From: a bacterium
GTDB taxonomy: Bacteria > Patescibacteriota > Minisyncoccia > Moranbacterales > UBA2206
Direction: 5' to 3'
Assembly (NCBI GenBank): GCA_021785125.1
Contig: JAJYGF010000004.1
Location: forward strand, 67,124 to 131,123
Length of the DNA: 64,000 bases
The notes under the pieces were generated by a model. That model searched no databases. It saw only the letters and a list, made by a program, of their open reading frames with translations, and had not been told where the DNA came from. Shown piece by piece: positions 2,140 to 28,233 of the stretch. Every line of letters begins with the position of its first letter. The stretch's first letter is position 1. The position numbers and the translations under genes were made by a program.

Positions 2140-2207
2140 AAATTGTCCGTTATAGCCAAGGGCGCGTTTGATGCTATAATAAAAACGTCAGCATACAATT
2201 TTTTGCC

Positions 2208-3026: not shown

Positions 3027-3028
3027 AT

Positions 3029-3742: not shown

Positions 3743-3745
3743 TCT

Positions 3746-4900: not shown

Positions 4901-4946
4901 CTCCGGAACAAGAAGCGCTCCAAAAATCGTCGCAAGACGGTTTTTT

Positions 4947-10367: not shown

Positions 10368-10414
10368 ATCGCAAACCTCAAGAAGTAGGTCTGCGTATGA
10401 ATTTATATTATATT

Positions 10415-10891: not shown

Positions 10892-10913
10892 ATATGTTAA
10901 TTTTACTATTATC

Positions 10914-11678
10914 TTATTTTGCCGCTGCGGCCGATCTTTCTTTTTTTTCCATATATTTTTGCTGTGCAATCATGAAAATGGTGGAAACCAGCCAATACAA
11001 GGCCAGTCCGGCCGGAAAACGTATTCCAATAAAAAGCGTCAGGAGCGGACCCAGAATCAGCATCTGCTTGGTCATCATTTGAGAGAAATCGGCCTGGTTG
11101 CTCTTGGCTGGCTTAACGACCTGTTTGGCCATTAGCATCTTAGTTTGGAAATATTGAGAACCGGCCGCCAGAACAACCAGAACGAGATGCGGCAAACCGG
11201 CTAAAGTCAGACGCGCTAAATTTATGGTCGCAGACAGATCGATTATACCCAAAAACATTTTGTTGATCTGTCTAGGATTATGAATAAATGAATAAACATC
11301 CCCGGAATTTATCATCAATCCCGCTTGCGAAATATTGAACAAGACCCGATAAATCGCAAGTAAAAAGATCAATTGGACAACCATCGGCACACATCCCGAA
11401 AGAGGATTGGCCTTATTTTCTTTGTACAGCTCCATAAGCGCGCGGCTCTGCTTTTCCTTGTCGTTTTTATGTCTTGCTTGCAATTCCTTGATTTTCGGAG
11501 AAAGCTCCTGCATCTTCTTTTGCGATTCTATTTGTTTCCGACTCAAGGGAATAAGCACCATTTTTATGGCAATCGTGACTAAAATGATCGCCACCCCGAA
11601 ATCGGGAATGATATCATAGACGAAAATCAACAGATTATAAATCGGCTGATATATTAAAGTATGAAATAAAAATGCCAT
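10914..11678 (-). CDS. yidC: Membrane protein insertase YidC (short form)
   Basis: YQPIYNLLIFVY...KMVLIPLSRKQIESQKKMQELSPKIKELQARHKNDKEKQSRALMELYKENKANPLSGCVPMVVQLIF. Confidence 0.85.
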   Translation of the reverse strand: MAFLFHTLIYQPIYNLLIFVYDIIPDFGVAIILVTIAIKMVLIPLSRKQIESQKKMQELSPKIKELQARHKNDKEKQSRALMELYKENKANPLSGCVPMVVQLIFLLAIYRVLFNISQAGLMINSGDVYSFIHNPRQINKMFLGIIDLSATINLARLTLAGLPHLVLVVLAAGSQYFQTKMLMAKQVVKPAKSNQADFSQMMTKQMLILGPLLTLFIGIRFPAGLALYWLVSTIFMIAQQKYMEKKERSAAAAK

Positions 11679-11681
11679 ATT

Positions 11682-12053
11682 TTAATCTTTTGAAGCTTTA
11701 TTGCCACCGGTATTGATTATTTGGGCTTTTTGCAGAACTTCGGAAACATTCTCTTTCCAGTTTATATTTTTGGTTTTTTCCTCTTCTTTTTTTCTGGCCA
11801 TAACCACAATATCCAAACCTTTTTTGATGTTTTTTAGCTCCGTTTGGAAAAGGTCTCGCAGTTTTCTTTTGACCAGATTCCTTTCCACGGCTTTTTTCGA
11901 ATATTTCAGTCCGACAATGAAACCTATTCTTGTCTGGCCGGATCCGTTTTCCAAAATTTTAAGAGCCAGATTGCGATAGGATACGAAATAACCAGCTTTT
12001 TGTACCATTTCATGGTCTCTTTTTTTAACCAAACGGTTTTTAAAAGGGAGCAT
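11682..12053 (-). CDS. rnpA: RNase P protein component
   Basis: VERNLVKRKLRD (the RNR-box-like motif). Sits 5 nt downstream of rpmH. Confidence 0.85.
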   Translation of the reverse strand: MLPFKNRLVKKRDHEMVQKAGYFVSYRNLALKILENGSGQTRIGFIVGLKYSKKAVERNLVKRKLRDLFQTELKNIKKGLDIVVMARKKEEEKTKNINWKENVSEVLQKAQIINTGGNKASKD

Positions 12054-12058
12054 CTCTT

Positions 12059-12202
12059 TTATTTCTGCGTCGTAGTTAGCCTTTTTCGCCCCTTAGCTCG
12101 CCTCCGTTTCAAGACAATCTGACCGGTTTTGGAAGAATTTCTTTTGCGAAAGCCCTGTCTTTTTTTACGACGGACGCTTGACGGTTTATATGTTTGACTC
12201 AT
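12059..12202 (-). CDS. rpmH: 50S ribosomal protein L34 (absent from the ORF track; 47 aa)
   Basis: My manual translation of the minus strand gives MSQTYKPSSVRRKKRQGFRKRNSSKTGQIVLKRRRAKGRKRLTTTQK*, a clear L34 signature. Confidence 0.8.
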   Translation of the reverse strand: MSQTYKPSSVRRKKRQGFRKRNSSKTGQIVLKRRRAKGRKRLTTTQK

Positions 12203-12371
12203 AGCCTTATTTTTAGCAAATTATCCCTTATTTAACTAATTTTAACTACTTTGAAGTGTACCAATTATTGCCGCCAAAGTCAATCGCGCGACTTTCGCCG
12301 AAAATTGTTCGAAATTTGCAATATCTTCGGATTTATAGTATGTCTTAAGGTAAGCGTTGATTCTATTAACA

Positions 12372-12416
12372 AGTTATCCACGCATTTATCCACATTTATT
12401 TTCGACAAGATTATCC
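12372..12416. promoter_or_regulatory. Cluster of three DnaA-box-like 9-mers upstream of dnaA
   Basis: gTTATCCACg, tTTATCCACA and aTTATCCGC lie in the same orientation within 45 bp, in the rpmH-dnaA intergenic region. Confidence 0.55.
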
Positions 12417-12465
12417 GCTGTGATATACTAAATTCTACACGACTCTTACTTTTAAATCCGTCCAC

Positions 12466-13839
12466 ATGACTAACGAGGAGCTTTGGCAAGCTGCTTTGGG
12501 GGAAATCGAGCTTTCTATTTCAAAGGCTAATTTTATTACGTGGTTTAAAAACACGTCGATTCTGTCCAACAAAGACGGCCGAGTAGTTATTGCCGTACCT
12601 AACGGCTTTGCCAAAGAGTGGCTGGAAAATAAATATAATCTTTATATTTTACGGGCTTTGCGCAATACCCAGAACGATATCCGGGAAGTTTCTTGCACGA
12701 TTGCCACCCTTCAGGACAATTTTAAAGAACAGCATTCCGTGGACGCAATTGTAGCCCCCAAAAAACCGATTCCAGTTCCTCCATTGGAAAAAACCCCCCA
12801 AATAAGCCAGGAAAATAATTTAAATCCCAAATATACTTTTGAAAACTTCATTATTGGCGGAAACAATGAACTGGCCAGAGCCGCCTGCTATGCCGTTTCT
12901 CAAAATTTAGGCCGTACTTACAATCCGCTTTTCATTTACGGCGGCGTCGGGCTGGGCAAAACTCACCTTTTGCAATCCATCGGCAATGAAATCATCAAAA
13001 AAGATCAGTCCAGAAAGGTAAAATACATCACCTCGGAAAGATTCACCAATGAATTGGTGGATGCCATACGCACCCAAAAAATCAATGAATTCAAGGAATA
13101 CTATCAGAAAATCGACCTTTTAATCATCGACGATGTTCAGTTTTTATCAGGTAAAGAAAAGACGCAAGAGGAGTTTTTTCACATATTTAACTATTTGCAT
13201 CAATTCAACAAACAAATAGTTTTGAGCAGCGATCGAGCGCCTAAGGCTATCCCCACCCTCGAAGAAAGATTGAGATCCCGCTTTGAAGGAGGAATGATTG
13301 CCGATGTGAGCAAAGCCGACTTTGAAACAAGATTGGCTATTTTGACAAAAAAGGCGCATGACGAAGGCTTAAACATAACCAAGGAAGCTTTAAATTTCAT
13401 TGCTGAAAATATAACCAATAATATTCGGGAATTAGAAGGAGCTTTGAACCGTGTTTCGGTTTCCGCCCAACTAAGCAACCAGGAGCTGGATCTAAAATAC
13501 GTCTCTTTTTTATTATCCAACCTCATTTCCAGTGGTAAGAAAAAGGGTATAACCCACAAAAACATCATTGACGCGGTTTCCGGTTTTTATGATATCAATC
13601 CTAATGACTTAATCGCCAAAAATCGAAAAAAGGAGGTTGCCAAACCCAGACAAATCGCTATGTTTCTTATGCGCAGCGAATTGCAATATTCTTATCCGGG
13701 AATAGGTGAAAAATTGGGCGGAAGGGACCACACCACCGCCATTCACGCTTTCGAAAAAATATCAAAAGAATTGGAATATAATGAAAAATTAATCGAGGAA
13801 TTATCCTCATTGAAAGAGCGCTTATACTCCATTACTTGA
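12466..13839 (+). CDS. dnaA: Chromosomal replication initiator DnaA
   Basis: Walker A GGVGLGKTHLL, the sensor and box VII region, and a C-terminal DnaA-box-binding domain (RQIAMFLMRSELQYSYPGIGEKLGGRDHTTAIHA). Confidence 0.95.
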   Translation: MTNEELWQAALGEIELSISKANFITWFKNTSILSNKDGRVVIAVPNGFAKEWLENKYNLYILRALRNTQNDIREVSCTIATLQDNFKEQHSVDAIVAPKKPIPVPPLEKTPQISQENNLNPKYTFENFIIGGNNELARAACYAVSQNLGRTYNPLFIYGGVGLGKTHLLQSIGNEIIKKDQSRKVKYITSERFTNELVDAIRTQKINEFKEYYQKIDLLIIDDVQFLSGKEKTQEEFFHIFNYLHQFNKQIVLSSDRAPKAIPTLEERLRSRFEGGMIADVSKADFETRLAILTKKAHDEGLNITKEALNFIAENITNNIRELEGALNRVSVSAQLSNQELDLKYVSFLLSNLISSGKKKGITHKNIIDAVSGFYDINPNDLIAKNRKKEVAKPRQIAMFLMRSELQYSYPGIGEKLGGRDHTTAIHAFEKISKELEYNEKLIEELSSLKERLYSIT

Positions 13840-13845
13840 TAAATT

Positions 13846-14108
13846 GTGGATAATTTGTAGATTAATCTGGTTTTTCTTTGTACATAACACCGCGTCAAAT
13901 AGTGGTTCATACCCTTCACACCCAAATCACTTTTTCAAACCCGACAATGCATCACCATCCACTCCCATGTGTCCCACTGTTCTTATTTACACTTTATCCA
14001 CAAAAAATTTGCTTTATTTAAAGCTATTTTCAGACTTATCCACATAAATAATTTTTTTAATAAAAACAATTTCTATAATAAATATTTATATTATATCTTA
14101 TTAAAACT
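13846..14108. promoter_or_regulatory. oriC-like region: DnaA boxes plus an AT-rich unwinding element between dnaA and dnaN
   Basis: TGTGGATAA at 13846, TTATCCACA near 13993 and cTTATCCACA near 14036, followed by a ~70 bp stretch at 14041-14108 that is more than 85% A+T. Confidence 0.5.
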
Positions 14109-15263
14109 ATGAAACTCACTTGCACTAAAGAAAACTTCAAAAAAGCTGTGTTTAATTGCGAAAGGATGGTTTCAAAACAAAGCACACTTCCTATTTTAAA
14201 TAATATTTTATTTGAAACGGAAAAAGGAGGCTTAAAACTATCCGCCACTAATTTAGAAATAGGAGTCTCGGTAAAAATCGGAGCTAAAATTGAAAAGGAA
14301 GGCAAAATAACAATACCAGCTAAATTAATAGGTAATTTCGCGAATAATCTAACTGATGGAGAAAATGTGGTTTTAGAAATGGTTGACCAGGGCTTGAAGA
14401 TAAAAAGCGGCTCGTCCAAGGCTGTGATAAAAGGGATTGCCGCTGATGACTTCCCATTGCTTCCCAAAAAAAATACGGATTATTTACTAAGAATTCCAGG
14501 TGAGAGATTGAAAAGCATCATTTCGAAGGTTATAATTTGTGTCGCTTTTAATGAAGCGCGACAGGAGCTGACCGGAATCAATCTTATTTTAGGAGAAAAG
14601 AGTATTTTTTTTGCCGCTACTGACAGTTTTAGATTGGCAGAAGACAAACTGGAGTTGAATATTGATGATGTAAACAAAGACTACTATGATTTTATAAGGA
14701 AAAAAGCTAGTGTAATAATTCCGGCGAATACTTTTTTGGAATTGGCGCGTATCATTTCCGGGGAAGAAAATGGGGAAGTGAGGTTGGCAATTGAAAACGA
14801 GCAGATTTTTATAGAAGTGGATGGCACCAATATCGTTTCAAGGCTTATTAATGGAAAATATCCGGAATATAAACATATTATGCCGGCCGAATTTAAAACC
14901 AGGATAGTTGTGGATAAAAATCAAATCCAGGGAGCGGTAAAAATGGCCAGTATGTTTTCGGCTGGAAAAACCAACGAGGTTGTTTTTAAGGCCGACGCTG
15001 ATGCAAAAAAGTTTACAATTGAAGCTAAAAGCGCTGAAGTGGGCGAGAATTCATCGGAATTGGCTGTGGATATCACAGGAGAACCGCAAAGAGTCGTGGT
15101 TAATTCGAAGTATTTTTTGGATGGATTAAGCACCATTTCCACCCAAAAAACAGCCATCTTGATCAATAGTGAAGCGACGCCCGTGGCTATCCGCGAAATA
15201 AATGAGAAAACCGGAGAAGTGTTGAAAGATTATACTTATATTGTTATGCCGATCAAAAACTGA
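14109..15263 (+). CDS. dnaN: DNA polymerase III beta sliding clamp
   Basis: Length and three-domain pattern fit; the N-terminus is MKLTCTKENFKKAV...STLPILNNILFE. Confidence 0.9.
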   Translation: MKLTCTKENFKKAVFNCERMVSKQSTLPILNNILFETEKGGLKLSATNLEIGVSVKIGAKIEKEGKITIPAKLIGNFANNLTDGENVVLEMVDQGLKIKSGSSKAVIKGIAADDFPLLPKKNTDYLLRIPGERLKSIISKVIICVAFNEARQELTGINLILGEKSIFFAATDSFRLAEDKLELNIDDVNKDYYDFIRKKASVIIPANTFLELARIISGEENGEVRLAIENEQIFIEVDGTNIVSRLINGKYPEYKHIMPAEFKTRIVVDKNQIQGAVKMASMFSAGKTNEVVFKADADAKKFTIEAKSAEVGENSSELAVDITGEPQRVVVNSKYFLDGLSTISTQKTAILINSEATPVAIREINEKTGEVLKDYTYIVMPIKN

Positions 15264-15397
15264 CAGGGATTTTGGTGAAGAATCAGAAAGCGTATCAAGG
15301 AACAATAAAGATGACGCAGAGGCAATAAGCGCCTAACAAAAGAAATGTTTGTATGAGGGCGTTTTTTGTTTCTTGACAAAAACAGAGCGGACAATAT

Positions 15398-15414
15398 ATA
15401 CTCTAGGGGAGTAT
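15398..15414. promoter_or_regulatory. Putative CsoR-family operator (ATACTC-tagGG-GAGTAT inverted repeat)
   Basis: A GC-cored palindrome overlapping the presumptive -10 region, about 20 bp upstream of the csoR-like gene. It resembles Bacillus CsoR boxes (TACCC-N-GGGTA). Confidence 0.45.
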
Positions 15415-15433
15415 GGAATATATCTAAATTCAA

Positions 15434-15703
15434 ATGTCAAAACCCAAAAAAGAAAATATAAAAAGCGATTCGCATGAAAAAGTCTTAAAAAGACTGGCGA
15501 GGGCGGAGGGACAAATCAGGGGCATAAGACGCATGGTGGAAGAAGGGCGCGAATGCATCGATGTTATCCAGCAGGTGACTGCTATCCGGCAAGCTATCGC
15601 AATGTTGGGAATAGAGCTTTTAAAGGATGATTTCATATGCAAAAGAAAAGAGCGAAAAGAAATTGACGAAAAATATTTGGAAACTCTTTTCAAGATAAAA
15701 TAA
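15434..15703 (+). CDS. CsoR/RcnR/FrmR-family metal(loid)-sensing transcriptional repressor
   Basis: LKRLARAEGQIRGIRRMVEEGRECIDVIQQVTAIRQAIAMLGIELL, with a conserved Cys in helix 2 and His/Cys in helix 3. Confidence 0.8.
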   Translation: MSKPKKENIKSDSHEKVLKRLARAEGQIRGIRRMVEEGRECIDVIQQVTAIRQAIAMLGIELLKDDFICKRKERKEIDEKYLETLFKIK

Positions 15704-15705
15704 TC

Positions 15706-16761
15706 ATGGGAAAAATACTTGACAATATTCAAAAACATCTTTTCATTTGGATTTTAGCGGCTATTTTTGGAGGGCTTGCCGGCGTATATTTTTTTGGCGG
15801 CTATGAATTCAGCACCATTATTTGCGTCCTGGCCGCGCTTTTGATGATTTATCCTTCACTGGTTCCCCTGTCATTTTATAAGTTGCATCACGCATTCAAA
15901 CATAAAAAAATCATCATGTTTTCGGTGGGTTTGAACTTTATTCTGTCACCGGCGCTTGCTTTGATTATCGGACGGCTTTTTTTGGTCGGTTTTCCCACGT
16001 TGCGCTTAGGATTGCTCTTGATCTCTCTTCTGCCGGGTGGCGGAATGGCTACGACATGGGCGCATAAGTCCAAAGCGGACATGTTGACGACTCTCGGAAT
16101 CATCTTTACCAATCTGGCGGTGGCCATAGTTGCGGTGCCGTTTAGCATTTCTTTGGCGCTGGAAAAATGGGCTTTTTCCAGCACATCCGCCGGCCCGGCC
16201 GTTTGCGCGATAAGCCAAGCCACAAAGGGCGTTCTGGCTTGCGGATCTGCCACGACCACTGTCAGTCCGTTAAGAATCATTGGGCCGATTGTAATCATAA
16301 TCATAATCCCCATGATTCTGGCCTATCTGACGCAAATGCTTATTAAGAACAAAAAAGGAACGGAATATTTTGAAAAAATAAAAGCAAATTTTGCCAAAGT
16401 CAGCAATTTGGGGCTGGTTGTGGTCTTGTTTGTCCTGATGGGTCTCAAAGAAAACAGTTTTTTGTTCAATCATGCCGGATGGATACTGGCTTCGATCGTT
16501 CCGCTCATGCTTTTTTACGGTATCAATATTCTGGTTGCGTTAGGTGTGTATAAAAAATTTTTCCGGAATGCGGCAGGAAAGGCTATGGTGTGGGGATCAT
16601 ATCTGCGATACATAACGTTGGCGCTGGGATTATCAATCTCATTTGTTTATACCGATCCGGCTCTGGTCTCGATGGTGATAATCGTTGTTTTGGCATATTT
16701 CATCCAAATTCCATCCTCGTTCTGGCTGGCGGAGAAATTACAGGAAGACAAAGTTAATTAA
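15706..16761 (+). CDS. BASS/ACR3-family permease (bile acid:Na+ symporter / arsenical-resistance-3-like)
   Basis: About 10 TM segments; the motifs are LIGRLFLVGFP...LLLISLLPGGGMATTWAHKSKAD. It is 2 nt after the csoR-like stop, so the two are probably co-transcribed. Confidence 0.55.
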   Translation: MGKILDNIQKHLFIWILAAIFGGLAGVYFFGGYEFSTIICVLAALLMIYPSLVPLSFYKLHHAFKHKKIIMFSVGLNFILSPALALIIGRLFLVGFPTLRLGLLLISLLPGGGMATTWAHKSKADMLTTLGIIFTNLAVAIVAVPFSISLALEKWAFSSTSAGPAVCAISQATKGVLACGSATTTVSPLRIIGPIVIIIIIPMILAYLTQMLIKNKKGTEYFEKIKANFAKVSNLGLVVVLFVLMGLKENSFLFNHAGWILASIVPLMLFYGINILVALGVYKKFFRNAAGKAMVWGSYLRYITLALGLSISFVYTDPALVSMVIIVVLAYFIQIPSSFWLAEKLQEDKVN

Positions 16762-18291: not shown

Positions 18292-19539
18292 ATGGAAAAA
18301 GAAAAAAATGTCTTTGGTTTGGTTTTGCAGAATTTTGCCAAAATAAAAGACCTGATCAAATTGGACGATAATATTTATACCCAACTTTTAGCGCCGCAGA
18401 AATTTCTGGAAGTGAATGTGCCGGTCAAAATGGACAACGGAACGATAAAAGTTTTCAAAGGATTCCGTTCGCAATTCAACGACGCGCGCGGACCATACAA
18501 GGGCGGTATCCGTTTTCATCCACAAGTGGATGAAAGTGAGGTGAAAGCCTTATCCGCTTGGATGGCGCTCAAGACGGCGGTCGTGAATATTCCTCTGGGT
18601 GGTGGAAAAGGCGGTGTGATAGTAAATCCTATGGAACTGTCTCAAAAAGAGCTGGAGGAGCTTTCCAGAGGCTATATCCGAGCCATCAGTAAATTGATCG
18701 GACCGGATCTGGATGTGCCGGCGCCGGATGTGTACACGGATCCAAAAATCATGGGCTGGATGCTGGATGAGTATGAAAAATTGAACGGAGGAAGGCATAT
18801 TCCGGGCGTGATCACCGGCAAGCCTTTGAGCATCGGCGGTTCAGAGGCGCGTTCATATTCAACGGCTCAAGGCGGATTCTATGCTTTGGACATGGCGGCC
18901 AAAAAGATCGGACTTTCCGAGGGGGCAACGGTAGCTATCCAAGGATTCGGCAATGCCGGCGCGCATATGGCCAAAATTTTGCAAAAAGCCGGCTATAAGA
19001 TTATTGCTATCAGTGATTCCAAAGGGACGGCGGTCAATGTGATGGGGTTGGATGTGGCGGATGTGGAAAGGCATAAAAAGAAAACCGGTTCGGTGGCTGA
19101 TTATCCGGGCGCGGAAGAGATTGGCGAGAAACATCTTTTTGATCAGGAAGCGGACATCTTGATTCCGGCCGCGCTTGAAAATTCAATCCAAGCGCAAGAC
19201 GCGGAAAAAATCAAAGTGAAGCTCATTGTAGAATTGGCCAATGGGCCGGTCACGCCGGAAGCGGATGAAATATTTGCGAAAAGAAATATCGTGGTCGTGC
19301 CAGACATCTTGGCCAATGCCGGCGGAGTGATCGTGAGTTACTTCGAGCAGGTCCAAAATGCCTACGGATATTATTGGAGCGAAGAAGAAGTTTTGGAAAA
19401 GCTGGAAGAAAAAATGAAAACTTCTTTCGATGAAATTTGGGCGAAGAAGGAAGAATATCAGGTCAGCATGCGTCTCGGTGCATATATCTTGGCGATTGAA
19501 AGAATTGCCGAGGCGATGAAGGATCGGGGAATGGCGTAA
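18292..19539 (+). CDS. gdhA: Glutamate dehydrogenase (Glu/Leu/Phe/Val dehydrogenase family)
   Basis: KGGIRFHPQVDESEVKALSAWMALKTAVVNIPLGGGKGG, and a C-terminal NAD(P)-binding motif GFGNAGAHMA. Confidence 0.9.
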   Translation: MEKEKNVFGLVLQNFAKIKDLIKLDDNIYTQLLAPQKFLEVNVPVKMDNGTIKVFKGFRSQFNDARGPYKGGIRFHPQVDESEVKALSAWMALKTAVVNIPLGGGKGGVIVNPMELSQKELEELSRGYIRAISKLIGPDLDVPAPDVYTDPKIMGWMLDEYEKLNGGRHIPGVITGKPLSIGGSEARSYSTAQGGFYALDMAAKKIGLSEGATVAIQGFGNAGAHMAKILQKAGYKIIAISDSKGTAVNVMGLDVADVERHKKKTGSVADYPGAEEIGEKHLFDQEADILIPAALENSIQAQDAEKIKVKLIVELANGPVTPEADEIFAKRNIVVVPDILANAGGVIVSYFEQVQNAYGYYWSEEEVLEKLEEKMKTSFDEIWAKKEEYQVSMRLGAYILAIERIAEAMKDRGMA

Positions 19540-23763: not shown

Positions 23764-25110
23764 CTACAATCGGTCTTCTTCATCAAGCGCGGCTAAAGTC
23801 TCATCCGTAATATTTAATTGATCCAGAATCCACGCATGCCTTGGATTAGATGGATCGTATTTTCCAACAGAGATGCGGCGAAGCTCCGGGGAGTTATTTT
23901 TTGCTAGGGTCCAAATAGAAATGTTGCCTTCACGATAAACGATATCTTTGGTGAAGCAAGCACCGGCTGTTTCGGAAGTGGTTCCGCGAAATGTCCTTAC
24001 ACATCTTTTCCAAGCCGTATTTTTTGCTGATTCCAATGCTTCCGTTCCTGGCTTATTTGATTTTATAAAATAGAAATCCTTTAGAATTTCAAAAACTTTG
24101 CGAAAATTTCTTTTCTTGCCATCCATACCCGTAGCTAGAGCAATAGCAAAATGCCCTTCCAGGCCAGTAAATTCAGAGGCTCCCTCGACCGATTGTTCCT
24201 TATAGGTAGCCAATCCTTCCTCTCCTCGCAAATAACGATCCAAACCTAAGCCAAGGAGTTTTAATTTCGATGTTTCTCCCTTTTCTCTTCTAAGTACATG
24301 AGTTCCAATTTCGTGCTCGATAAGGGCAGCTAGTTTTGTTTTTGTGAGGAGTTTTTCGCGCGGGATAAAAACTTCCTTTTTATCTTGACTTACGTTTATT
24401 GCGCTACTACTGGATTCGCTTATTGAAATGTTCCAACCTGCTATATCATATTTTTCCAATGCTTCTTCAAAGGATTTTTTTATTTCTTCGGATGAATACT
24501 TTTGTTCATTTTTGTCCAAAGATTTTTTTAAAAGGCCAAAATCCTTAGGATTCAAATTTGAATCAGTGTCCATCAAAGCTTCAAAAAGTTCAATATTTAA
24601 TCTTTTTGCTGCTGAAGCTGTCTCGGGATCGGGATCAAATAGTTTTTTATCAATAATGTTTTTTATTTGTGAAATAGTATATTTATAAATATCCTTTTCG
24701 GGTTTTCCATAAATAAACTCTGAATATTTCAAAAAACGATTATCCCTGCCTTCTTTCGATGCTTTCAGCATCCTTAATTCTGCAATTTTTTCATTCAATC
24801 TCCAACGATAAACTTGTTTTATTATTTCATTTGGCTCATTTTCTAAAATAGTCTTTTTTAAGTCTAATAGACAAGCTTCCTTATTTGGAAACTCTAATTT
24901 TTCTAAAGCTGGGTAATCAAGTTTTGGATTTTCTATTTCTCGTGCCAAAAATTTTTTCTTTTGCTCCTCTCGAAAATTCTTTTCTCCATCTAAATATTCA
25001 TAGTCCTGGAAAGAGGCGATCTCTTCAAATCTTTCATACCAAGCATCATCCAATGCTTTTGTACCAGATTCGTTTTTTGGCAAAAATTTATCTTCAAACC
25101 CCATAAACAA
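23764..25110 (-). CDS. DUF1704 / 'QEGLA-motif' family protein with HExxH metallopeptidase-like motif
   Basis: ALIEHEIGTHVLRREKG (HExxH) and LRGEEGLATYKEQ (QEGLA-like). Family co-occurrence with RimK-like ATP-grasp genes is from memory. Confidence 0.6.
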   Translation of the reverse strand: MFMGFEDKFLPKNESGTKALDDAWYERFEEIASFQDYEYLDGEKNFREEQKKKFLAREIENPKLDYPALEKLEFPNKEACLLDLKKTILENEPNEIIKQVYRWRLNEKIAELRMLKASKEGRDNRFLKYSEFIYGKPEKDIYKYTISQIKNIIDKKLFDPDPETASAAKRLNIELFEALMDTDSNLNPKDFGLLKKSLDKNEQKYSSEEIKKSFEEALEKYDIAGWNISISESSSSAINVSQDKKEVFIPREKLLTKTKLAALIEHEIGTHVLRREKGETSKLKLLGLGLDRYLRGEEGLATYKEQSVEGASEFTGLEGHFAIALATGMDGKKRNFRKVFEILKDFYFIKSNKPGTEALESAKNTAWKRCVRTFRGTTSETAGACFTKDIVYREGNISIWTLAKNNSPELRRISVGKYDPSNPRHAWILDQLNITDETLAALDEEDRL

Positions 25111-25159
25111 AAATAAGGCCTATGCCTTATTTTACCACTTTTGTCTTGCAAGCCAAACT

Positions 25160-26173
25160 TTAGCGGAACAGATAATTGATGAGGTTGGGAGCCAGGTCGC
25201 GGATCTCTCCTTGCGTGGGCCTGGCATGTATCTGCAGGTCAGGAAAAGTTCCGTTTATTTCTATTATCACGCCGCCCGTCTCGTCCAGCGGGCGGGATAT
25301 ATCCGCGGTTATTATGTCGATTCCGATGACGGGCAAGTTCATGATTTTGGATATTTCATTTGCCATGTCCAAGATGCTCGGGTGCACGGAATCAGTGGCG
25401 TCTATATACTCTCCGCCATCGAATCCGCCGAAACACAGAGGCACTTTTCGGCCCTGCTCAATGACTGAATCGAGCTTGTATCCGTACGAGATGAGGAATC
25501 GCCGGGTCTTGTCTGTGATTCTTATTTTCTTCAAGCGGCGGTTCTCCCCGCGGTCTTTGTTGCTGTTATTTTCCCGGCGTATCAATTCTTCGGCAGTCAG
25601 CATCCCATCGCCCGTAATATAGGCGGGCACATTTCTTACGGCGGCGAATGATCCGTCTGCCACATATGTCAGCCGGTAATAATCCCCGGGAATGTATTTT
25701 TCCACCAGAACCTTATCGCTGATATTTTTTGCCAGCAAGAAAGATTCCATCAAGAGAGCCTTGTTATCGACATATGGCGTTATGCCTTTTCCTTCTGATG
25801 AGTTCAGGGGCTTTATTACGAGAGGGAATGCGATTTTTTCCATAACCTCTTCCAATTCATCTGCGGATGAAATAACCATGCCGGGCGCAACGGGATAGCC
25901 CAATGTTTTCAAAAGTTTTTTGGTGAGGTGCTTGTTGCGAGCCGTGTTCACGCCGATCGGATTCGCCTTTGATGACAATGACTTGTGCAGCCAAACCAAC
26001 TTACCGTCTTTTTTCAGGATGAAAATCAGCTTGGACGGGAAGACTCTATATATTTCGATGCCGTTTTTCAAGGCGTAATCCAACAGTGCCGTAATTGTCT
26101 TGCGGATCTTCGACTTGTCGATCGTATGAAGATTTTCCGGAGTGATTTTTTCCAGATTTTCCAAAAAAAACAT
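25160..26173 (-). CDS. ATP-grasp enzyme (RimK / cyanophycin-synthetase-like)
   Basis: FPLVIKPLNSSEGKGI, VLVEKYIPGDYYRLTYVADG and IIEINGTFPDLQIH match ATP-grasp phosphate-binding and Mg loops. Confidence 0.6.
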   Translation of the reverse strand: MFFLENLEKITPENLHTIDKSKIRKTITALLDYALKNGIEIYRVFPSKLIFILKKDGKLVWLHKSLSSKANPIGVNTARNKHLTKKLLKTLGYPVAPGMVISSADELEEVMEKIAFPLVIKPLNSSEGKGITPYVDNKALLMESFLLAKNISDKVLVEKYIPGDYYRLTYVADGSFAAVRNVPAYITGDGMLTAEELIRRENNSNKDRGENRRLKKIRITDKTRRFLISYGYKLDSVIEQGRKVPLCFGGFDGGEYIDATDSVHPSILDMANEISKIMNLPVIGIDIITADISRPLDETGGVIIEINGTFPDLQIHARPTQGEIRDLAPNLINYLFR

Positions 26174-27570
26174 TATTTTTTCACATCTATTAAGAATTTA
26201 TTCAGATTTCTTCTGCCGATGATGATCGGATATTTCAAATGGCTCCGATCGATGACGGCCACCTTGGCCGGAATCAGCCAATTATGCATGGAAATGTTCA
26301 CCTTTATCGTCGGCCGATAAGTGATGCCATGGGAGGAATGCACGATGATCCTGGTGGAAGTTATGTCCGGCAGGTGCTTGTAGATACCCCAACGCTCTTT
26401 TTTTGGCAGATCTTTCAGATCCGCGTAGGTCTGGGTGATTTTCTCATATTCTTCGACCATCTTTTCAAATCCGAGTTCGCGGGCCAATTCCGTGCAGATC
26501 GAAGTATAGCCGGCGCCGGTGTCGATCTTGGCCTCCACTTCAACCGTCTTTCCATCTTTTCCGGTCAATTTGACTTTTTCAACCGTGCCGATCACCTTTC
26601 TTCCGGAAATTTCTTCCACTTCTTCTTCGACTTCTCCTCCGAAAAGATCCATGCCCATGCGCACGCCTTTTGAAACGGTTTTTATTTTCAGACCGGAAAT
26701 TCTTTTGAGCCTTTCGGTCAGACCGGCCAAATTCGCAACCTGGATCGAAAGCCCCGGGCGGGCGTTGAGCTCCAAAATGGTCGGACCATATTCTTTGTCG
26801 ATGGCGATGTCAACGCCCAGAAAGCCTAGATTGGATATCTCCTGAGCTGTGGAAGCTAATTCCAAAATATCTTTCCAATACGGAATGCGGATGCCGCTGG
26901 TGGACAGACGGGTGTCCGGTATTTTTTCTATAAACTTTCCCTTGCCGATTATGGCAGTTGTGGTTACTCCGGTGGCCATATCGATCCCGACCCCGATGGC
27001 GCCTTGCTGCAAATTGGCCTTACCTCCGGATTCTTTGGTCGGCAGGCGGAGCATGGCCATGATCGGAACCTTGTTGAAAACGATGACTCTGATATCCGGG
27101 ATGCCTTTATGCGTATAAGGCTTGAAGAGTTTTAATAATTGCAGCCTTTCTTCGAAAAAAGCGACATCCGGCGTATTGGAAAGCGAATATGATCCGTCCA
27201 GGATATTTCGGATATGGTTTTTAAGGTCATCGATCGTAATGAGCGATCGGTCCGCCTTGATCCATGCGTCATCGCGTCCTTTCTTTTTGCCGTAAACCAC
27301 GATGATGCCTTCACCTCCGAATCCGCGATTTGGCTTCAAGGCGAAGCTGTGCGGCAATTTTTGCCAGTCAAAGTTTTCCAGTTCGTCGAGAGTTTTTATT
27401 TTGGCGATAAGCTTTGGAACAGCCGCACCGTTTTTTTTAAGGATTTTTTTGCTAAGCAGTTTGTCGTCGGCCAGGCGCTTGGCTTTCAAGCGATTGTACG
27501 GACGGATGAATTCCAGATTTCTGGAATTCATGCCCAAAATTTTTCGGCTGTTCTTGAAAAGCTCAAACAT
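26173..27570 (-). CDS. Alpha-L-glutamate-ligase-related (RimK-like) ATP-grasp fused to a C-terminal retropepsin-like clan-AA aspartic protease (DTGA)
   Basis: N-terminus MFELFKNSRKILGMNSRNLEFIRPYN...ALKPNRGFGGEGIIVV...ILELNARPGLSIQ. C-terminus VEVEAKIDTGAGYTSICTELARELG carries the DTGA catalytic motif. Confidence 0.65.
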   Translation of the reverse strand: MFELFKNSRKILGMNSRNLEFIRPYNRLKAKRLADDKLLSKKILKKNGAAVPKLIAKIKTLDELENFDWQKLPHSFALKPNRGFGGEGIIVVYGKKKGRDDAWIKADRSLITIDDLKNHIRNILDGSYSLSNTPDVAFFEERLQLLKLFKPYTHKGIPDIRVIVFNKVPIMAMLRLPTKESGGKANLQQGAIGVGIDMATGVTTTAIIGKGKFIEKIPDTRLSTSGIRIPYWKDILELASTAQEISNLGFLGVDIAIDKEYGPTILELNARPGLSIQVANLAGLTERLKRISGLKIKTVSKGVRMGMDLFGGEVEEEVEEISGRKVIGTVEKVKLTGKDGKTVEVEAKIDTGAGYTSICTELARELGFEKMVEEYEKITQTYADLKDLPKKERWGIYKHLPDITSTRIIVHSSHGITYRPTIKVNISMHNWLIPAKVAVIDRSHLKYPIIIGRRNLNKFLIDVKK

Positions 27571-27573
27571 CGT

Positions 27574-28233
27574 TTATTGGATTCTTTTGATTACTTGTCT
27601 GAAGCGTATGTATTCGCTTAACCTCAAGCCTGTCCATTTTCCAATGGCTATATTGAGAGGAATTGTGAACAGAACAGCCCAGGGATAAGTTACCAGAAAC
27701 TTTATAAGCGAACTCCAACTGGCTATATAGAACCCGATGATCGAAATGACCAATGTTTCCAAAGCCAGAATCAAAGCTGTCTTGTTTCCTTTTTCAATCT
27801 GGACAGCCACAAACTTTTCGACCAATGTGATCATGATCAGGATGGGAAAAATGGAAACGGAAGCCAGGCCGGTCCTTTGTAGGCTTCCTCCGAGCGCCAA
27901 GAAGAAAAGGATGATCAGTGCTACGAAGGTTAGCATTATAGCTACCCGTGGAAGATAGAGCAGTCGGAAGGGCTTTAGGACAAAGCGCATCAGCATGCCG
28001 ATAAAAATGACCGCCAAAAATATGGCGATGCCGTATTTGATGCCGTTAGTCGCCAAGAAGGCGAAAGTTATGATGAGCGGCGTATAGATGCCGAAAGCTT
28101 TGATGCCGACCACTTGGCGCATAAAAGCGATCAAAGTGGCTATGATCGGCAGCATCAAAATCAAAATTATAGTTTCAAACGGAACGCCTTCGGTCATAAA
28201 GAAGCGTATGATAGGGCTGATTGAAATTTCCAT
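27574..28233 (-). CDS. Seven-TM membrane protein ('7TM' component of ATP-grasp/inactive-transglutaminase type cassettes)
   Basis: 219 aa with 7 predicted TM helices. Stop-start distance of 3 nt to the ATP-grasp::protease gene. Confidence 0.5.
   Translation of the reverse strand: MEISISPIIRFFMTEGVPFETIILILMLPIIATLIAFMRQVVGIKAFGIYTPLIITFAFLATNGIKYGIAIFLAVIFIGMLMRFVLKPFRLLYLPRVAIMLTFVALIILFFLALGGSLQRTGLASVSIFPILIMITLVEKFVAVQIEKGNKTALILALETLVISIIGFYIASWSSLIKFLVTYPWAVLFTIPLNIAIGKWTGLRLSEYIRFRQVIKRIQ

What the first reader, a model, noticed from the sequence alone, without database searches (positions are those of the whole stretch)
23764..28233. Four-gene peptide-ligase/protease cassette: DUF1704 (QEGLA, HExxH), an ATP-grasp, a RimK-like ATP-grasp fused to a retropepsin-like protease, and a 7TM protein
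All four genes are co-directional with 3-50 nt spacing, so they are almost certainly an operon. The combination of a RimK-like ATP-grasp amidoligase, a clan-AA (DTGA) aspartic protease, a putative Zn-metallopeptidase (HEIGTH...EEGLA) and a 7TM membrane protein is a predicted peptide-tagging and trimming module. It probably makes or modifies poly-amino-acid or peptide conjugates at the membrane. This association was proposed in comparative-genomic work on ATP-grasp amidoligases. Neither substrate nor product is known for any version. Here it sits in a minimal genome next to ruvC, which suggests it matters to this organism.
Basis: partly seen in the sequence, partly recalled or inferred. Interest (0 to 1): 0.75.

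Follow-up and report, generated by a model that had tools for sequence, protein, structure and literature searches.

The report
Membrane-linked peptide-tail ligase/protease cassette (Rlo-type)
A tiny-genome (CPR/Moranbacteria) bacterium carries a compact version of the recently described bacterial Rlo/Rim system, in which enzymes that add short acidic amino-acid chains are joined to proteases that remove them and paired with a membrane protein; what the system modifies is still unknown in any organism.

Summary
The four ORFs, their domains and motifs are real (all on the minus strand). They are not one conserved four-gene unit, though. The conserved core is two genes. One is a bare 7TM protein matching the membrane half of RloB. 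The other is a single polypeptide that joins an RloC-type ATP-grasp ligase (44% identical to a canonical RloC-family protein) to a RimB/RloA-type retropepsin with DTGA intact. This pair is adjacent in all 51 related CPR loci that have upstream sequence, and it is at least as conserved as RuvC. Downstream lies a variable slot holding 1-4 ATP-grasp ligases of more than 25 subfamilies, sometimes with Mur-ligase, glycosyltransferase or GNAT genes. In this window the slot holds a stand-alone cyanophycin-synthetase G-domain ligase. It also holds a MATCAP/DUF1704 metallocarboxypeptidase that is compositionally foreign (GC3 0.29 vs 0.52-0.60) and preceded by its own promoter-like site and hairpin. One Gracilibacteria contig fuses the same ligase to MATCAP and has a degenerate retropepsin (DTG to SLG), which links the two peptidases functionally. 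Best reading: a membrane-docked writer/eraser for acidic alpha-peptide chains or tails, acceptor unknown. It is a new variant of a known kind, of moderate interest.

The parts
27574..28233 (-). g1: 219-aa seven-helix membrane protein. It matches the RloB-type 7TM domain and has no ectodomain. Conserved core gene 1.
   Evidence: PF14402 at 108.9 bits against a cutoff of 25. It matches only positions 313-507 of NCBIfam RloB. It is 29% identical (6e-24) to residues 310-505 of a Legionella RloB-family protein. It lies immediately upstream of the fusion gene in 51/51 loci that have upstream flank. Many charged or polar residues are invariant or highly conserved (e.g. R39, Q40, K45, R83, R90, R96, E139, K140, Q145, E147, K148, E159, T160, R204, E207, R210). 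The AF2 model has pLDDT 73 and seven TM helices plus a C-terminal amphipathic helix.
26173..27570 (-). g2: 465-aa fusion protein, RloC-type ATP-grasp ligase plus retropepsin. Conserved core gene 2.
   Evidence: Thousands of relatives, the closest in Moranbacteria/Parcubacteria. An exact copy is on NCBI MAG contigs.
26692..27549 (-). ATP-grasp ligase domain of g2 (aa 8-293), RloC / 'alpha-L-glutamate ligase-like' type.
   Evidence: TIGR02291 at 294 bits, just under its 314.2 cutoff; PF14397 at 233 bits. It is 44% identical (2e-77) to the Legionella RloC-family protein, which scores 436 bits on TIGR02291. Motifs LKP, PDIR, MAMLRLPT, GKANL and ELNARPGLSIQ are conserved in 51 orthologues.
26599..26655 (-). 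Glu-rich inter-domain linker GMDLFGGEVEEEVEEISGR.
   Evidence: LFGGE[IV]EEE[LVI]E[ED]ISG is conserved in Moranbacteria and largely in Falkowbacteria loci, but not in more distant CPR lineages. Any role as a self-cleavage or pseudo-substrate site is speculation, because RloA needs 8 or more consecutive Glu (PMC12239564).
26182..26595 (-). Retropepsin-like aspartic peptidase domain of g2 (aa 326-463). Catalytic DTGA at 26512..26523.
   Evidence: PF05618 at 32.1 bits against a cutoff of 27. PDB 9g58 (RloA) at 6e-4 with DTGA aligned. The AF2 model has pLDDT 81, and all top 50 Foldseek PDB hits are retropepsin folds, including RloA, RloA2, Lpg0085, Ddi1 and HIV PR. The domain has net charge +9, one Cys and no signal peptide. 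D, G, A and the C-terminal IIG motif are conserved.
25160..26173 (-). g3: 337-aa stand-alone ATP-grasp ligase of the cyanophycin-synthetase G-domain type. It occupies the variable ligase slot.
   Evidence: It matches only positions 163-472 of the 871-residue CphA model (3e-71). PDB CphA1 7lg5 residues 202-480 at 7e-45, with the E-x-N Mg/ATP motif aligned. The best match in the 53 related loci is 24-34% identical, so it is a singleton among more than 25 accessory subfamilies. Its GC3 of 0.595 is native-like.
25110..25156 (-). g3-g4 spacer: promoter-like TTGGCT-16-TGgTAAAAT (25156..25129), overlapping by a few bases the start of a perfect 10-bp hairpin AAAATAAGGC-ATAG-GCCTTATTTT plus T-rich tail (25133..25110), 5 nt before ATG 25104.
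   Evidence: These are consensus matches only; function has not been shown.
23764..25104 (-). g4: MATCAP/DUF1704-family zinc metallocarboxypeptidase (446 aa from the ATG; 448 aa from TTG 25110). HEIGTH at 24298..24315 and EEGLA at 24208..24222. A horizontally acquired accessory gene.
   Evidence: PF08014 at 101 bits against a cutoff of 27. A family profile hits human MATCAP PDB 7z5g at 1.5e-8 with HEIGTH and EEGLA aligned. H266, E267 and H271 are invariant. GC is 0.359 and GC3 0.286, against GC3 of 0.52-0.60 for all neighbours. The nearest relative is only 67% identical, whereas g2's is 94%.

Best explanation
This is a CPR (Candidatus Moranbacteria-like) variant of the Rlo/Rim class of 'amino-acid-chain ligase plus chain-specific protease' systems.

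Shown here:
- The obligate core is a 7TM membrane protein homologous to the membrane half of RloB.
- Its partner is one polypeptide in which an RloC-type ATP-grasp ligase is fused to a RimB/RloA-type retropepsin.
- The catalytic residues of both domains are conserved.
- The core is followed by a rapidly exchanging slot of extra ligases. In this genome that slot holds a stand-alone cyanophycin-synthetase G-domain ligase.
- The same slot also holds a horizontally acquired MATCAP-family metallocarboxypeptidase.

Inferred mechanism:
1. At the cytoplasmic face of the membrane, the ligases use ATP to turn the C-terminal carboxylate of a growing peptide or tail into an acyl-phosphate, then add alpha-linked acidic residues. 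By analogy with RimK, g2 would add Glu. By analogy with the CphA G domain, g3 would add Asp or another residue.
2. The basic retropepsin domain, acting as a dimer, cuts long acidic runs internally. As RimB does for RimK, it may also stimulate the ligase.
3. MATCAP removes residues one at a time from the C-terminus.
4. The 7TM protein has a conserved, strongly basic cytoplasmic face and conserved intramembrane Glu residues. It would dock the ligase and hand the acidic product to the envelope, or present it there.

The net effect would be a tunable, self-limited pool of acidic peptide chains or tails linked to envelope and osmotic homeostasis. The acceptor is unknown: it could be free peptide, a protein C-terminus or an envelope precursor.
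For: Homology to a canonical Rlo-type operon:
- g2 residues 11-291 are 44% identical to a Legionella RloC-family protein.
- g1 is 29% identical to the 7TM part of the adjacent RloB-family protein.
- The g2 C-terminal domain aligns to the adjacent RloA-like protein with DTGA matched.

Fold and motifs:
- The retropepsin fold is confirmed by a model and fold search.
- ATP-grasp, DTGA and HExxH/EGxA motifs are conserved in orthologues.

Linkage and selection:
- The 7TM gene and the fusion gene are adjacent in 51/51 loci across Moran-, Falkow-, Woese-, Sacchari-, Kaiser- and Gracilibacteria and Microgenomates.
- The core is as conserved as RuvC and more conserved than YebC and PBP1a.
- 46 of 51 loci carry at least one further ATP-grasp downstream. 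Some of these pass the RimK-family cutoff.

MATCAP is tied to the same ligase:
- It lies next to the core in Moranbacteria, Saccharibacteria and Gracilibacteria loci.
- In L053 it is fused to the RloC-type ligase, whose retropepsin remnant has lost its catalytic Asp (DTGA to SLGA).

Literature:
- RimK makes poly-alpha-Glu and glutamylates S6. RimB cleaves poly-Glu and stimulates RimK. An active RimB-RimK hybrid exists (PMC11957791).
- RloA cleaves runs of 8 or more Glu. Deleting rloB or rloC suppresses the delta-rloA1-3 defects in hypo-osmotic survival, cell shape and beta-lactam tolerance (PMC12239564).
- MATCAP-family TMCP1/2 remove C-terminal Tyr/Glu and polyglutamyl chains (PMC10499314).
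- A QEGLA gene and an adjacently numbered gene annotated 'glutathione synthase GshB' (locus tags RS17025 and RS17020) are 27- to 38-fold induced at low salinity in Photobacterium (PMC10308900).

The retropepsin domain is net +9, which fits an acidic substrate.
Against: - No substrate, product or amino-acid specificity can be read from sequence. 'Glu' for g2 and 'Asp' for g3 are analogies.
- g2 falls just below the TIGR02291 cutoff (294 vs 314.2) and far below the RimK cutoff.
- The protease is cytoplasmic and fused to the ligase, whereas RloA is secreted. The compartment logic of the Pseudomonas model (cytoplasmic synthesis, periplasmic degradation) therefore does not transfer directly, and an export role for the 7TM protein is weaker here.
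- The window encodes no acidic-tailed protein and no rpsF.
- The ligase-MATCAP fusion rests on a single 6-kb MAG contig, and a metagenome scan found no second copy.
- Glycosyltransferase, GNAT and Mur-ligase genes recur in the variable slot. This points at least as much to decoration of a glycoconjugate as to free peptide.
Confidence: 0.5

Rival explanations
1. Envelope glycoconjugate or peptidoglycan decoration. The ATP-grasp ligases would amidate sugar-acid or muropeptide carboxylates on a nucleotide- or lipid-linked precursor with amino acids or short peptides. The 7TM protein would flip or present the lipid-linked intermediate, and the peptidases would edit the peptide decoration.
For: - Pfam names the g2 ligase family 'sugar-transfer associated ATP-grasp'.
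- GT4, GT2 and GT8 glycosyltransferases, GNAT and a stand-alone Mur-ligase (CphA M-domain/MurE-like) recur in the variable slot of related loci.
- In Moranbacteria and Falkowbacteria the slot always abuts the class A PBP gene.
- Pseudomonas rlo phenotypes concern cell shape, beta-lactam sensitivity and hypo-osmotic lysis (PMC12239564).
Against: - This window's cassette contains no glycosyltransferase.
- PBP1a synteny is absent in the other CPR lineages, where the neighbours are ribosomal protein genes.
- The closest characterised relatives of every catalytic part (RimK, RimB/RloA, CphA G domain, MATCAP) act on alpha-peptide C-termini, not on sugars.
- Glycosyltransferases are present in only about 8 of 51 loci.
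Confidence: 0.2
2. RimK-like tagging of a specific cytoplasmic protein, for example ribosomal protein S6 or another protein with an acidic C-terminus. Tail length would be reset by the fused retropepsin and by MATCAP, tuning translation or another cytoplasmic process. The 7TM protein would only localise or regulate the enzyme.
For: - Ligase and protease are both cytoplasmic and physically coupled, as in RimK-RimB and the RimBK hybrid (PMC11957791).
- The retropepsin lacks the signal peptide and the Cys pair of periplasmic RloA (PMC12239564).
- MATCAP enzymes act on protein C-terminal tails (PMC10499314).
Against: - The ligase is RloC-type, not RimK-type (TIGR00768 at 42.8 bits against a cutoff of 143.4).
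- The obligate 7TM partner in 51/51 loci is unexplained by a purely cytoplasmic target.
- The D. psychrophila RimBK hybrid did not glutamylate P. fluorescens SBW25 S6 (PMC11957791).
- No candidate target is encoded in the window.
Confidence: 0.1
3. A cyanophycin-like nitrogen/carbon storage polymer, made by split cyanophycin-synthetase-type enzymes and mobilised by the peptidases.
For: - g3 is a close match to the CphA1 G domain.
- Some related loci add a stand-alone protein matching the CphA M domain (7e-49).
Against: - This window has no M-domain protein and no CphA N domain.
- g3-type ligases are not conserved between loci.
- The conserved core (7TM plus RloC-type ligase) has no counterpart in cyanophycin metabolism.
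- No cyanophycinase-type peptidase is present.
Confidence: 0.07
4. A ribosomal peptide (RiPP) maturation cluster or an anti-phage defence system.
For: ATP-grasp ligases and proteases occur together in graspetide clusters (PMC8939145).
Against: - Spacers of 3, -1 and about 50 nt leave no room for a precursor-peptide gene.
- There are no PADLOC hits.
- No viral copies were found.
- The ligases belong to C-terminus-extending families, not macrocyclising ones.
Confidence: 0.03

Closest known systems
RloABC operon of Pseudomonas aeruginosa and other Gammaproteobacteria (Lormand et al., mBio 2025, PMC12239564)
   Same: It has the same three building blocks in one locus: the PF14402 7TM domain, a TIGR02291/PF14397 ATP-grasp, and a PF05618 retropepsin with DTG. 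Against a canonical rloABC-like operon on a Legionella plasmid, g2 is 44% identical to the RloC-family protein and g1 is 29% identical to the 7TM part of the RloB-family protein.
   Different: - There is no inactive-transglutaminase ectodomain. The protein is a bare 7TM here, and has a signal peptide plus PKD ectodomain in Falkowbacteria.
- The protease is fused to the C-terminus of the ligase, so it is cytoplasmic, with no signal peptide or disulfide pair.
- A variable array of extra ligases follows the core.
- A MATCAP gene is associated.
- The host is CPR, although the paper reports 96% of RloB hits in Proteobacteria.
RimK-RimB and the RimBK hybrid enzyme (JBC 2025, PMC11957791)
   Same: A cytoplasmic alpha-amino-acid ligase is physically coupled to a retropepsin that cleaves the poly-Glu it makes. 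A natural single-chain fusion exists and is proteolytically active.
   Different: In RimBK the domain order is RimB at the N-terminus and RimK at the C-terminus; here the ligase is N-terminal. The ligase here is not in the RimK family (42.8 bits against 143.4). The Rim system has no 7TM partner.
Cyanophycin synthetase CphA1 (PDB 7lg5 and relatives)
   Same: g3 aligns to the G (ATP-grasp) domain, residues 202-480, at 7e-45. That domain extends a peptide backbone at its C-terminal carboxylate.
   Different: g3 has no N domain and no Mur-ligase-like M domain, and it scores 240 bits against the whole-protein cutoff of 877. It is a stand-alone ligase in a variable slot.
Eukaryotic tubulin-tail cycle: TTL/TTLL ATP-grasp ligases versus MATCAP/TMCP carboxypeptidases (PMC10499314; PDB 7z5g)
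   Same: g4 belongs to the same Pfam family (PF08014) and has the same HExxH...EEGLA zinc site. It is paired with ATP-grasp ligases that extend C-terminal tails. This is the same writer/eraser logic.
   Different: The hosts are bacteria without tubulin, and the substrate is unknown. g4 is a divergent subfamily (TIGR02421 at 83.9 bits against a cutoff of 338.65; direct phmmer to 7z5g gives only 1e-3).
Comparative-genomic prediction of ATP-grasp / 7TM-inactive-transglutaminase / peptidase systems (Iyer et al., Mol Biosyst 2009; cited in PMC12239564 and PMC12096838, not readable here)
   Same: Judging from how the citing papers use it, that work covered the general association of these domain families, and the Pfam families appear to derive from it. 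This origin is my recollection and was not checked.
   Different: I could not read the paper. I therefore cannot say whether the CPR fusion, the variable ligase slot or the ligase-MATCAP fusion were noted there.

Membership tests
Rlo system (RloA/RloB/RloC) | RloC: cytoplasmic ATP-grasp of the 'alpha-L-glutamate ligase-like' family (TIGR02291) | tested here: inconclusive
   g2 aa 8-293 scores 294 bits, just under the curated cutoff of 314.2. PF14397 is met at 233 bits against 31.4. g2 is 44% identical to a Legionella protein that scores 436 bits. It is clearly the same domain family, but a fused, divergent form.
Rlo system (RloA/RloB/RloC) | [quoted passage not shown] | tested here: not met
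   Only the 7TM half is present. g1 matches RloB model positions 313-507 and scores 90 bits against a cutoff of 900. PF14402 itself is met at 108.9 bits against 25.
Rlo system (RloA/RloB/RloC) | RloA: secreted (signal peptide, disulfide) retropepsin-like peptidase with DTG | tested here: not met
   The retropepsin fold and DTGA are present. But the domain is the C-terminal part of a cytoplasmic ligase, with no signal peptide and only one Cys. RloA3 model: 40.5 bits against a cutoff of 210.
Rlo system (RloA/RloB/RloC) | All three functions encoded together in one locus | tested here: met
   g1 and g2 are 3 nt apart. The pair is adjacent in 51/51 related loci.
Rlo system (RloA/RloB/RloC) | Role in hypo-osmotic tolerance, cell shape and beta-lactam tolerance, with ligase and membrane-protein loss epistatic to protease loss | not testable with these tools
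   This needs genetics, and the host is an uncultured CPR organism.
RimK/RimB (and RimBK hybrid) | RimK-family alpha-L-glutamate ligase (TIGR00768) | tested here: not met
   g2 scores 42.8 bits and g3 49.9 bits against a cutoff of 143.4. Accessory ligases in relatives do pass: L001 at 148.1 and L054 at 143.9.
RimK/RimB (and RimBK hybrid) | Hybrid architecture with RimB N-terminal to RimK | tested here: not met
   The order here is ligase then peptidase, whereas PMC11957791 describes the opposite order.
Cyanophycin synthetase CphA1 | N domain + G (ATP-grasp) domain + M (Mur-ligase-like) domain in one protein | tested here: not met
   g3 covers only model positions 163-472 of 871 and scores 240.8 bits against 877. 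PDB alignment is to residues 202-480 only.
MATCAP / PF08014 (ex-DUF1704) metallocarboxypeptidases | Pfam family membership | tested here: met
   101 bits against a cutoff of 27. A profile of 30 relatives hits human MATCAP 7z5g at 1.5e-8.
MATCAP / PF08014 (ex-DUF1704) metallocarboxypeptidases | HExxH zinc motif plus downstream EEGLA glutamate | tested here: met
   HEIGTH and EEGLA are present and aligned to those of MATCAP. H266, E267 and H271 are invariant; E298, G299 and A301 are at least 90% conserved.
MATCAP / PF08014 (ex-DUF1704) metallocarboxypeptidases | C-terminal Tyr/Glu carboxypeptidase activity on acidic tails | not testable with these tools
   This needs an enzyme assay.
QEGLA equivalog TIGR02421 (proteobacterial 'flavohemoglobin expression-modulating' protein) | Score above the curated cutoff | tested here: not met
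   83.9 bits against 338.65. g4 is a divergent CPR subfamily.
Clan AA retropepsin fold | Retropepsin fold with D-T/S-G at the dimer interface | tested here: met
   The AF2 model has pLDDT 81. All top 50 Foldseek PDB hits are retropepsins at probability 1.00. DTGA is at aa 350-353. Dimerisation was not tested.

The most novel reading that the evidence does not exclude
CPR bacteria may use the conserved membrane-docked RloC-retropepsin core as the platform of a ribosome-independent, ATP-grasp-based peptide assembly line. The strain-specific set of accessory ligases (more than 25 subfamilies, 1-4 per genome, sometimes with Mur-ligase, glycosyltransferase or GNAT genes) would build lineage-specific acidic peptide or glycopeptide polymers on the cell envelope. 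Such a hypervariable surface polymer locus would be comparable to O-antigen loci and could be relevant to host attachment or phage evasion by these episymbionts. The interchangeable retropepsin and MATCAP erasers would also be prokaryotic forerunners of the tubulin-tail ligase/carboxypeptidase cycle.
Probability: 0.15. Interest if true: 0.8.

Novelty: new variant of a known kind. Interest (0 to 1): 0.5.

Why it matters
The Rlo system was tied in 2025 to osmotic tolerance, cell shape, biofilm formation and beta-lactam tolerance in Pseudomonas, but its product is unknown.

This CPR variant is the most stripped-down form seen here: a bare 7TM protein plus one ligase-protease polypeptide. It is kept under strong selection in organisms with minimal genomes. 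That argues for a basic envelope or physiological role and offers a simpler two-protein system for biochemistry.

Two further observations give concrete, testable hints that the product is an alpha-linked acidic peptide chain whose composition varies between lineages:
- the variable ligase slot;
- the apparent swap of retropepsin for MATCAP on the same ligase.

The pairing also places a MATCAP-family 'detyrosinase/deglutamylase' next to its likely ancestral partner type, an ATP-grasp tail ligase, in bacteria.

Tried and rejected
- **Search for a substrate encoded nearby.** The window has no rpsF, no ORF with an acidic C-terminus and no acidic run of 6 or more residues.
- **Looking for more ligase-MATCAP fusions.** The metagenome contig scan returned only distant ATP-grasp hits, so the fusion rests on one contig.
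- **Viral or plasmid carriage.** There are no viral relatives of g2 or g4. g4 has no plasmid match. g2 matched three records in the plasmid collection at 36-44% identity, in every case through the ligase part only.
- **Defence-system membership.** No PADLOC hit.
- **Self-cleavage at the Glu-rich linker.** I considered this but did not adopt it. The motif EVEEEVEE is shorter and more interrupted than the 8 or more consecutive Glu that RloA needs (PMC12239564), and it is absent outside Moranbacteria/Falkowbacteria.
- **The 441-aa no-Pfam protein in relative L054.** It shows only a weak partial resemblance to the MATCAP HExxH region (hhalign probability 67%), which I treat as unproven.
- **A functional link to ruvC/yebC.** Rejected, because the synteny is confined to two CPR classes.
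- **Iyer et al. 2009.** The paper could not be read.
- **The K. pneumoniae CfmP paper.** It concerns a different ATP-grasp family, TupA-like.

Full report
**Observation.** The window holds four co-directional ORFs on the minus strand at the stated coordinates:
- g1, 28233..27574 (219 aa)
- g2, 27570..26173 (465 aa)
- g3, 26173..25160 (337 aa)
- g4, 25110/25104..23764 (448/446 aa)

Spacings are 3 nt, a 1-nt overlap, and 49-55 nt. The run continues on both sides. ruvC ends 5 nt before g1 and a class A PBP gene starts 87 nt after g4. An exact copy of g2 lies on NCBI MAG contigs with the same gene order. The closest named relatives are Candidatus Moranbacteria/Parcubacteria.

**Domain identities**:
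- g1 is PF14402 '7TM_transglut' (3.9e-31), but it matches only the C-terminal 195 positions of the RloB model. It has no transglutaminase domain.
- g2 carries an N-terminal ATP-grasp (PF14397 3.8e-69). TIGR02291 'alpha-L-glutamate ligase-like' scores 1.1e-87 at 294 bits, just under the 314.2 cutoff.
- g2 also carries a C-terminal PF05618 domain (1.2e-7), now called RimB-like.
- g3 matches cyanophycin synthetase at 3e-71, but only over the G (ATP-grasp) domain. PDB 7lg5 residues 202-480 align at 7e-45. There is no N domain and no Mur-ligase M domain.
- g4 is PF08014 MATCAP, the former DUF1704 (9e-29).

Motifs were checked by translation: DTGA, HEIGTH and EEGLA.

The sequence evidence for the retropepsin domain was modest, so I modelled it (pLDDT 81, pTM 0.75). 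All top 50 Foldseek matches in the PDB are retropepsin folds, including P. fluorescens RloA, P. aeruginosa RloA2, Legionella Lpg0085 (DUF785), Ddi1 and retroviral proteases.

A profile of 30 g4 relatives (30-51% identity) hits human MATCAP (7z5g) at 1.5e-8, with HEIGTH and EEGLA aligned.

**What is known.** NCBIfam's names led to two 2025 papers.
- In P. aeruginosa, rloA-rloB-rloC encode a secreted retropepsin, an inactive-transglutaminase/7TM protein and a cytoplasmic ATP-grasp. The three RloA paralogues are redundantly needed for hypo-osmotic survival, normal cell shape, biofilm formation and beta-lactam tolerance. They cleave runs of 8 or more Glu in vitro. Deleting rloB or rloC suppresses the protease triple mutant. 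The in vivo substrate is unknown (PMC12239564).
- In the related Rim system, RimK glutamylates ribosomal protein S6 and makes poly-alpha-glutamate. RimB cleaves these chains and stimulates RimK. [quoted passage not shown]
- MATCAP-family TMCP1/2 are metallocarboxypeptidases that remove C-terminal Tyr/Glu and polyglutamyl chains from tubulin tails (PMC10499314).

The Rlo-type product is still unknown.

**Direct comparison with a canonical operon.** A Legionella adelaidensis plasmid carries an annotated rloA-, rloB- and rloC-like trio. The RloB-like protein scores 472 bits on the RloB model (itself below that model's 900-bit cutoff), and the RloC-like protein scores 436 bits on TIGR02291. Against it:
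- g2 residues 11-291 are 44% identical to the RloC-family protein (2e-77).
- g1 is 29% identical to RloB-family residues 310-505 (6e-24).
- g2 residues 326-459 align to the RloA-like protein with DTGA matched (3e-4).

The window therefore holds a compact form: the 7TM half of rloB followed by an rloC::rloA fusion.

**What is conserved.** A scan of species-representative genomes with g2 returned 53 loci. They come from Moranbacteria, Falkowbacteria, Woesebacteria, Microgenomates, Saccharibacteria, Kaiserbacteria and Gracilibacteria. Several MAGs are labelled Bdellovibrionales or Gammaproteobacteria but share the CPR synteny.

Mapping the window's genes onto them gives the following:
- The 7TM gene sits immediately upstream of the fusion gene in all 51 loci that have upstream sequence.
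- In Moranbacteria and Falkowbacteria the frame yebC-ruvC-7TM-fusion-[1-4 kb]-PBP1a is syntenic. Elsewhere the neighbours differ; in the Microgenomates-type loci they are ribosomal proteins L11, L1, L10 and L7/L12.
- In the 18 loci with all five genes, g1 (mean 66% identity) and g2 (64%) are as conserved as RuvC (63%). g2 is more conserved than YebC (55%) and PBP1a (57%) in 18 of 18.
- ATP-grasp motifs, D-x-G-A and the C-terminal IIG motif are conserved in 51 orthologues. The 7TM protein has many invariant charged or polar residues. By the positive-inside rule and the model's helices, the basic ones lie on the cytoplasmic face. That placement is an inference.

**What is variable.** The stretch between the fusion gene and the next conserved gene is a replacement slot.
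- 46 of 51 loci carry 1-4 tandem ATP-grasp genes of about 300 aa there.
- At 38% identity these fall into more than 25 subfamilies in combinatorial arrangements.
- They include CphA-G-like types and genuine RimK-family members that pass the TIGR00768 cutoff.
- Other occupants are a stand-alone protein matching the CphA M domain/MurE (7e-49), GT4/GT2/GT8 glycosyltransferases, GNAT and a SAM methyltransferase.
- Genomes whose g2 is about 80% identical to the window's carry entirely different sets (L001, L026, L054).
- g3 has no match above 34% identity in any of the 53 loci. Its composition is native, with GC3 0.595.

**MATCAP is an accessory, but a linked one.** It lies next to the core in only 5 of the 53 loci (L010, L012, L016, L046, L053). 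Three further CPR MATCAP contexts were examined:
- One is in the same slot but inverted (L061).
- Two are elsewhere in the genome (L059, L060).

In the window, g4 has GC 0.359 and GC3 0.286, against GC3 of 0.52-0.60 for yebC, ruvC, g1, g2, g3 and PBP1a. Its nearest relative is 67% identical, versus 94% for g2. It is preceded by a promoter-like site (TTGGCT-16-TGgTAAAAT) and a perfect 10-bp hairpin ending 5 nt before the ATG. g4 is therefore best read as a recent horizontal insertion that may be transcribed on its own.

The association with the core still recurs in three distant CPR classes. In Saccharibacteria L046 the order is MATCAP-7TM-fusion, tightly spaced.

In Gracilibacteria L053, one 777-aa ORF directly after the 7TM gene contains the RloC-type ligase (PF14397 2e-55; TIGR02291 221 bits) and a MATCAP domain (PF08014 1e-50, HEIGTH and EEGLA intact). 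Between them is a shortened retropepsin remnant in which DTGA has become SLGA. This looks like a replacement of one eraser peptidase by another on the same ligase. It is the strongest computational evidence that g2 and g4 act on the same product. It rests on a single 6-kb MAG contig, and a metagenome scan found no second example.

**Mechanism.**

Shown:
- homology of each part to enzymes that extend peptide C-termini (RimK relatives, CphA G domain);
- homology to enzymes that cut or trim acidic peptide chains (RimB/RloA, MATCAP);
- intact catalytic motifs;
- obligate genetic coupling of the ligase-protease to a 7TM protein;
- a net basic retropepsin domain (+9).

Inferred:
- The ligases build alpha-linked acidic chains on an unknown acceptor at the cytoplasmic membrane face.
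- The retropepsin limits chain length and may activate the ligase.
- MATCAP trims from the C-terminus.
- The 7TM protein docks the enzyme and passes or presents the product to the envelope.

The Pseudomonas genetics (ligase and membrane-protein loss epistatic to protease loss) fit a product that is harmful if not trimmed. A QEGLA gene and an adjacently numbered gene annotated 'glutathione synthase GshB' are 27- to 38-fold induced at low salinity in Photobacterium (PMC10308900), which fits an osmotic link.

Weak points:
- Amino-acid specificity is by analogy only.
- The protease is cytoplasmic here, so the synthesis-inside, degradation-outside logic does not transfer.
- No candidate substrate is encoded nearby.

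**Rivals.**
- Decoration of an envelope glycoconjugate or peptidoglycan precursor has real support: glycosyltransferase, GNAT and Mur-ligase genes in the slot, PBP1a synteny, and the Pfam family's 'sugar-transfer associated' label. But glycosyltransferases are absent from this window's cassette and present in only about 8 of 51 loci.
- RimK-like tagging of a cytoplasmic protein fits the cytoplasmic fused protease but leaves the obligate 7TM partner unexplained.
- A cyanophycin-like storage polymer fits g3 only.
- RiPP or defence roles have no support.

**Verdict.** The unit is a two-gene core with a variable ligase slot and a horizontally acquired MATCAP, not a conserved four-gene operon. It belongs to a class that is now partly characterised.

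It fails several defining features of the Rlo and Rim families as described: no transglutaminase domain, a non-secreted fused protease, and reversed domain order relative to RimBK. I therefore file it as a new variant of a known kind. Interest is moderate (0.5): it offers a minimal, strongly conserved form suited to solving the open question of the Rlo product, plus the ligase-MATCAP link.

Noticed in passing
window 10415..15263 (and composition table for 1..16000): The chromosomal replication origin region appears to lie about 10 kb from the cassette. dnaA is at 12466..13839 and dnaN at 14109..15263. yidC (10914..11678) and a jag/KhpB-like gene (10415..10969) are on the other strand. GC skew changes sign at about 12-14 kb. 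The ruvC-to-PBP1a run is on the minus strand to the right of this point, so it would be transcribed head-on to replication.
   Followed up: partly
window 23764..25104: g4 (MATCAP) has GC3 of 0.286, while every neighbouring gene has 0.52-0.60. This is a sharp compositional island of a single gene, suggesting recent transfer from a lower-GC donor.
   Followed up: yes
L053 1058..3391 (Gracilibacteria MAG contig DATDAE010000112.1): A single 777-aa ORF combines an RloC-type ATP-grasp, a shortened retropepsin remnant with DTGA changed to SLGA, and an intact MATCAP domain. It looks like a peptidase swap on the same ligase. Only one contig supports it.
   Followed up: partly
L029-L033 and L035, gene upstream of the fusion (e.g. 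L030, 519 aa): In Falkowbacteria and one Parcubacteria genome the 7TM protein carries a signal peptide, a PKD domain and about 200 further extracellular residues, instead of the proteobacterial inactive-transglutaminase domain. Moranbacteria have no ectodomain at all. The ectodomain of this family is therefore interchangeable.
   Followed up: partly
L006 4187..5449, and the cluster-c8 genes in L014 (10221..11423) and L027: A stand-alone 400-420-aa Mur-ligase protein matches the M domain of cyanophycin synthetase (positions 481-859, 7e-49). It sits in the variable slot next to CphA-G-like ATP-grasps, so it may be a split cyanophycin-synthetase-like pair in some Moranbacteria.
   Followed up: no
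L002, L003, L013, L015, L023, L027, L028, L031, L033, L034 and others (record titles): Many TPA MAGs titled 'uncultured Bdellovibrionales' or 'uncultured Gammaproteobacteria' carry the Moranbacteria/Falkowbacteria-type synteny (yebC-ruvC-7TM-fusion-PBP1a) at 50-75% identity. Their taxonomic labels look wrong.
   Followed up: no
L060 8001..14385 (Paceibacterota MAG): Here the MATCAP homologue is followed by three genes with PPDK_N / PEP-utilizer domains rather than RimK-like ligases. This is a different possible partner set for the peptidase.
   Followed up: no
window 18292..19539: A glutamate/Leu/Phe/Val dehydrogenase-family gene lies three genes beyond PBP1a (after DciA and an HTH protein). 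It could be relevant to glutamate supply, or it could be coincidence.
   Followed up: no
L054 10712..12037: In a close relative (g2 82% identical) the slot contains a 441-aa protein with no Pfam or NCBIfam hit. Its last 80 residues weakly resemble the MATCAP HExxH region ('HETEGH'; hhalign probability 67%). It may be a degenerate or truncated relative.
   Followed up: partly
L018 8889..10742, and the other members of cluster c9 in L040 and L041: A 607-655-aa protein with no Pfam or NCBIfam match recurs in the slot downstream of the core, in one Parcubacteria-labelled locus of the Moranbacteria synteny type (L018) and in two other CPR loci (L040, L041). It is an uncharacterised accessory gene of the system.
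   Followed up: no
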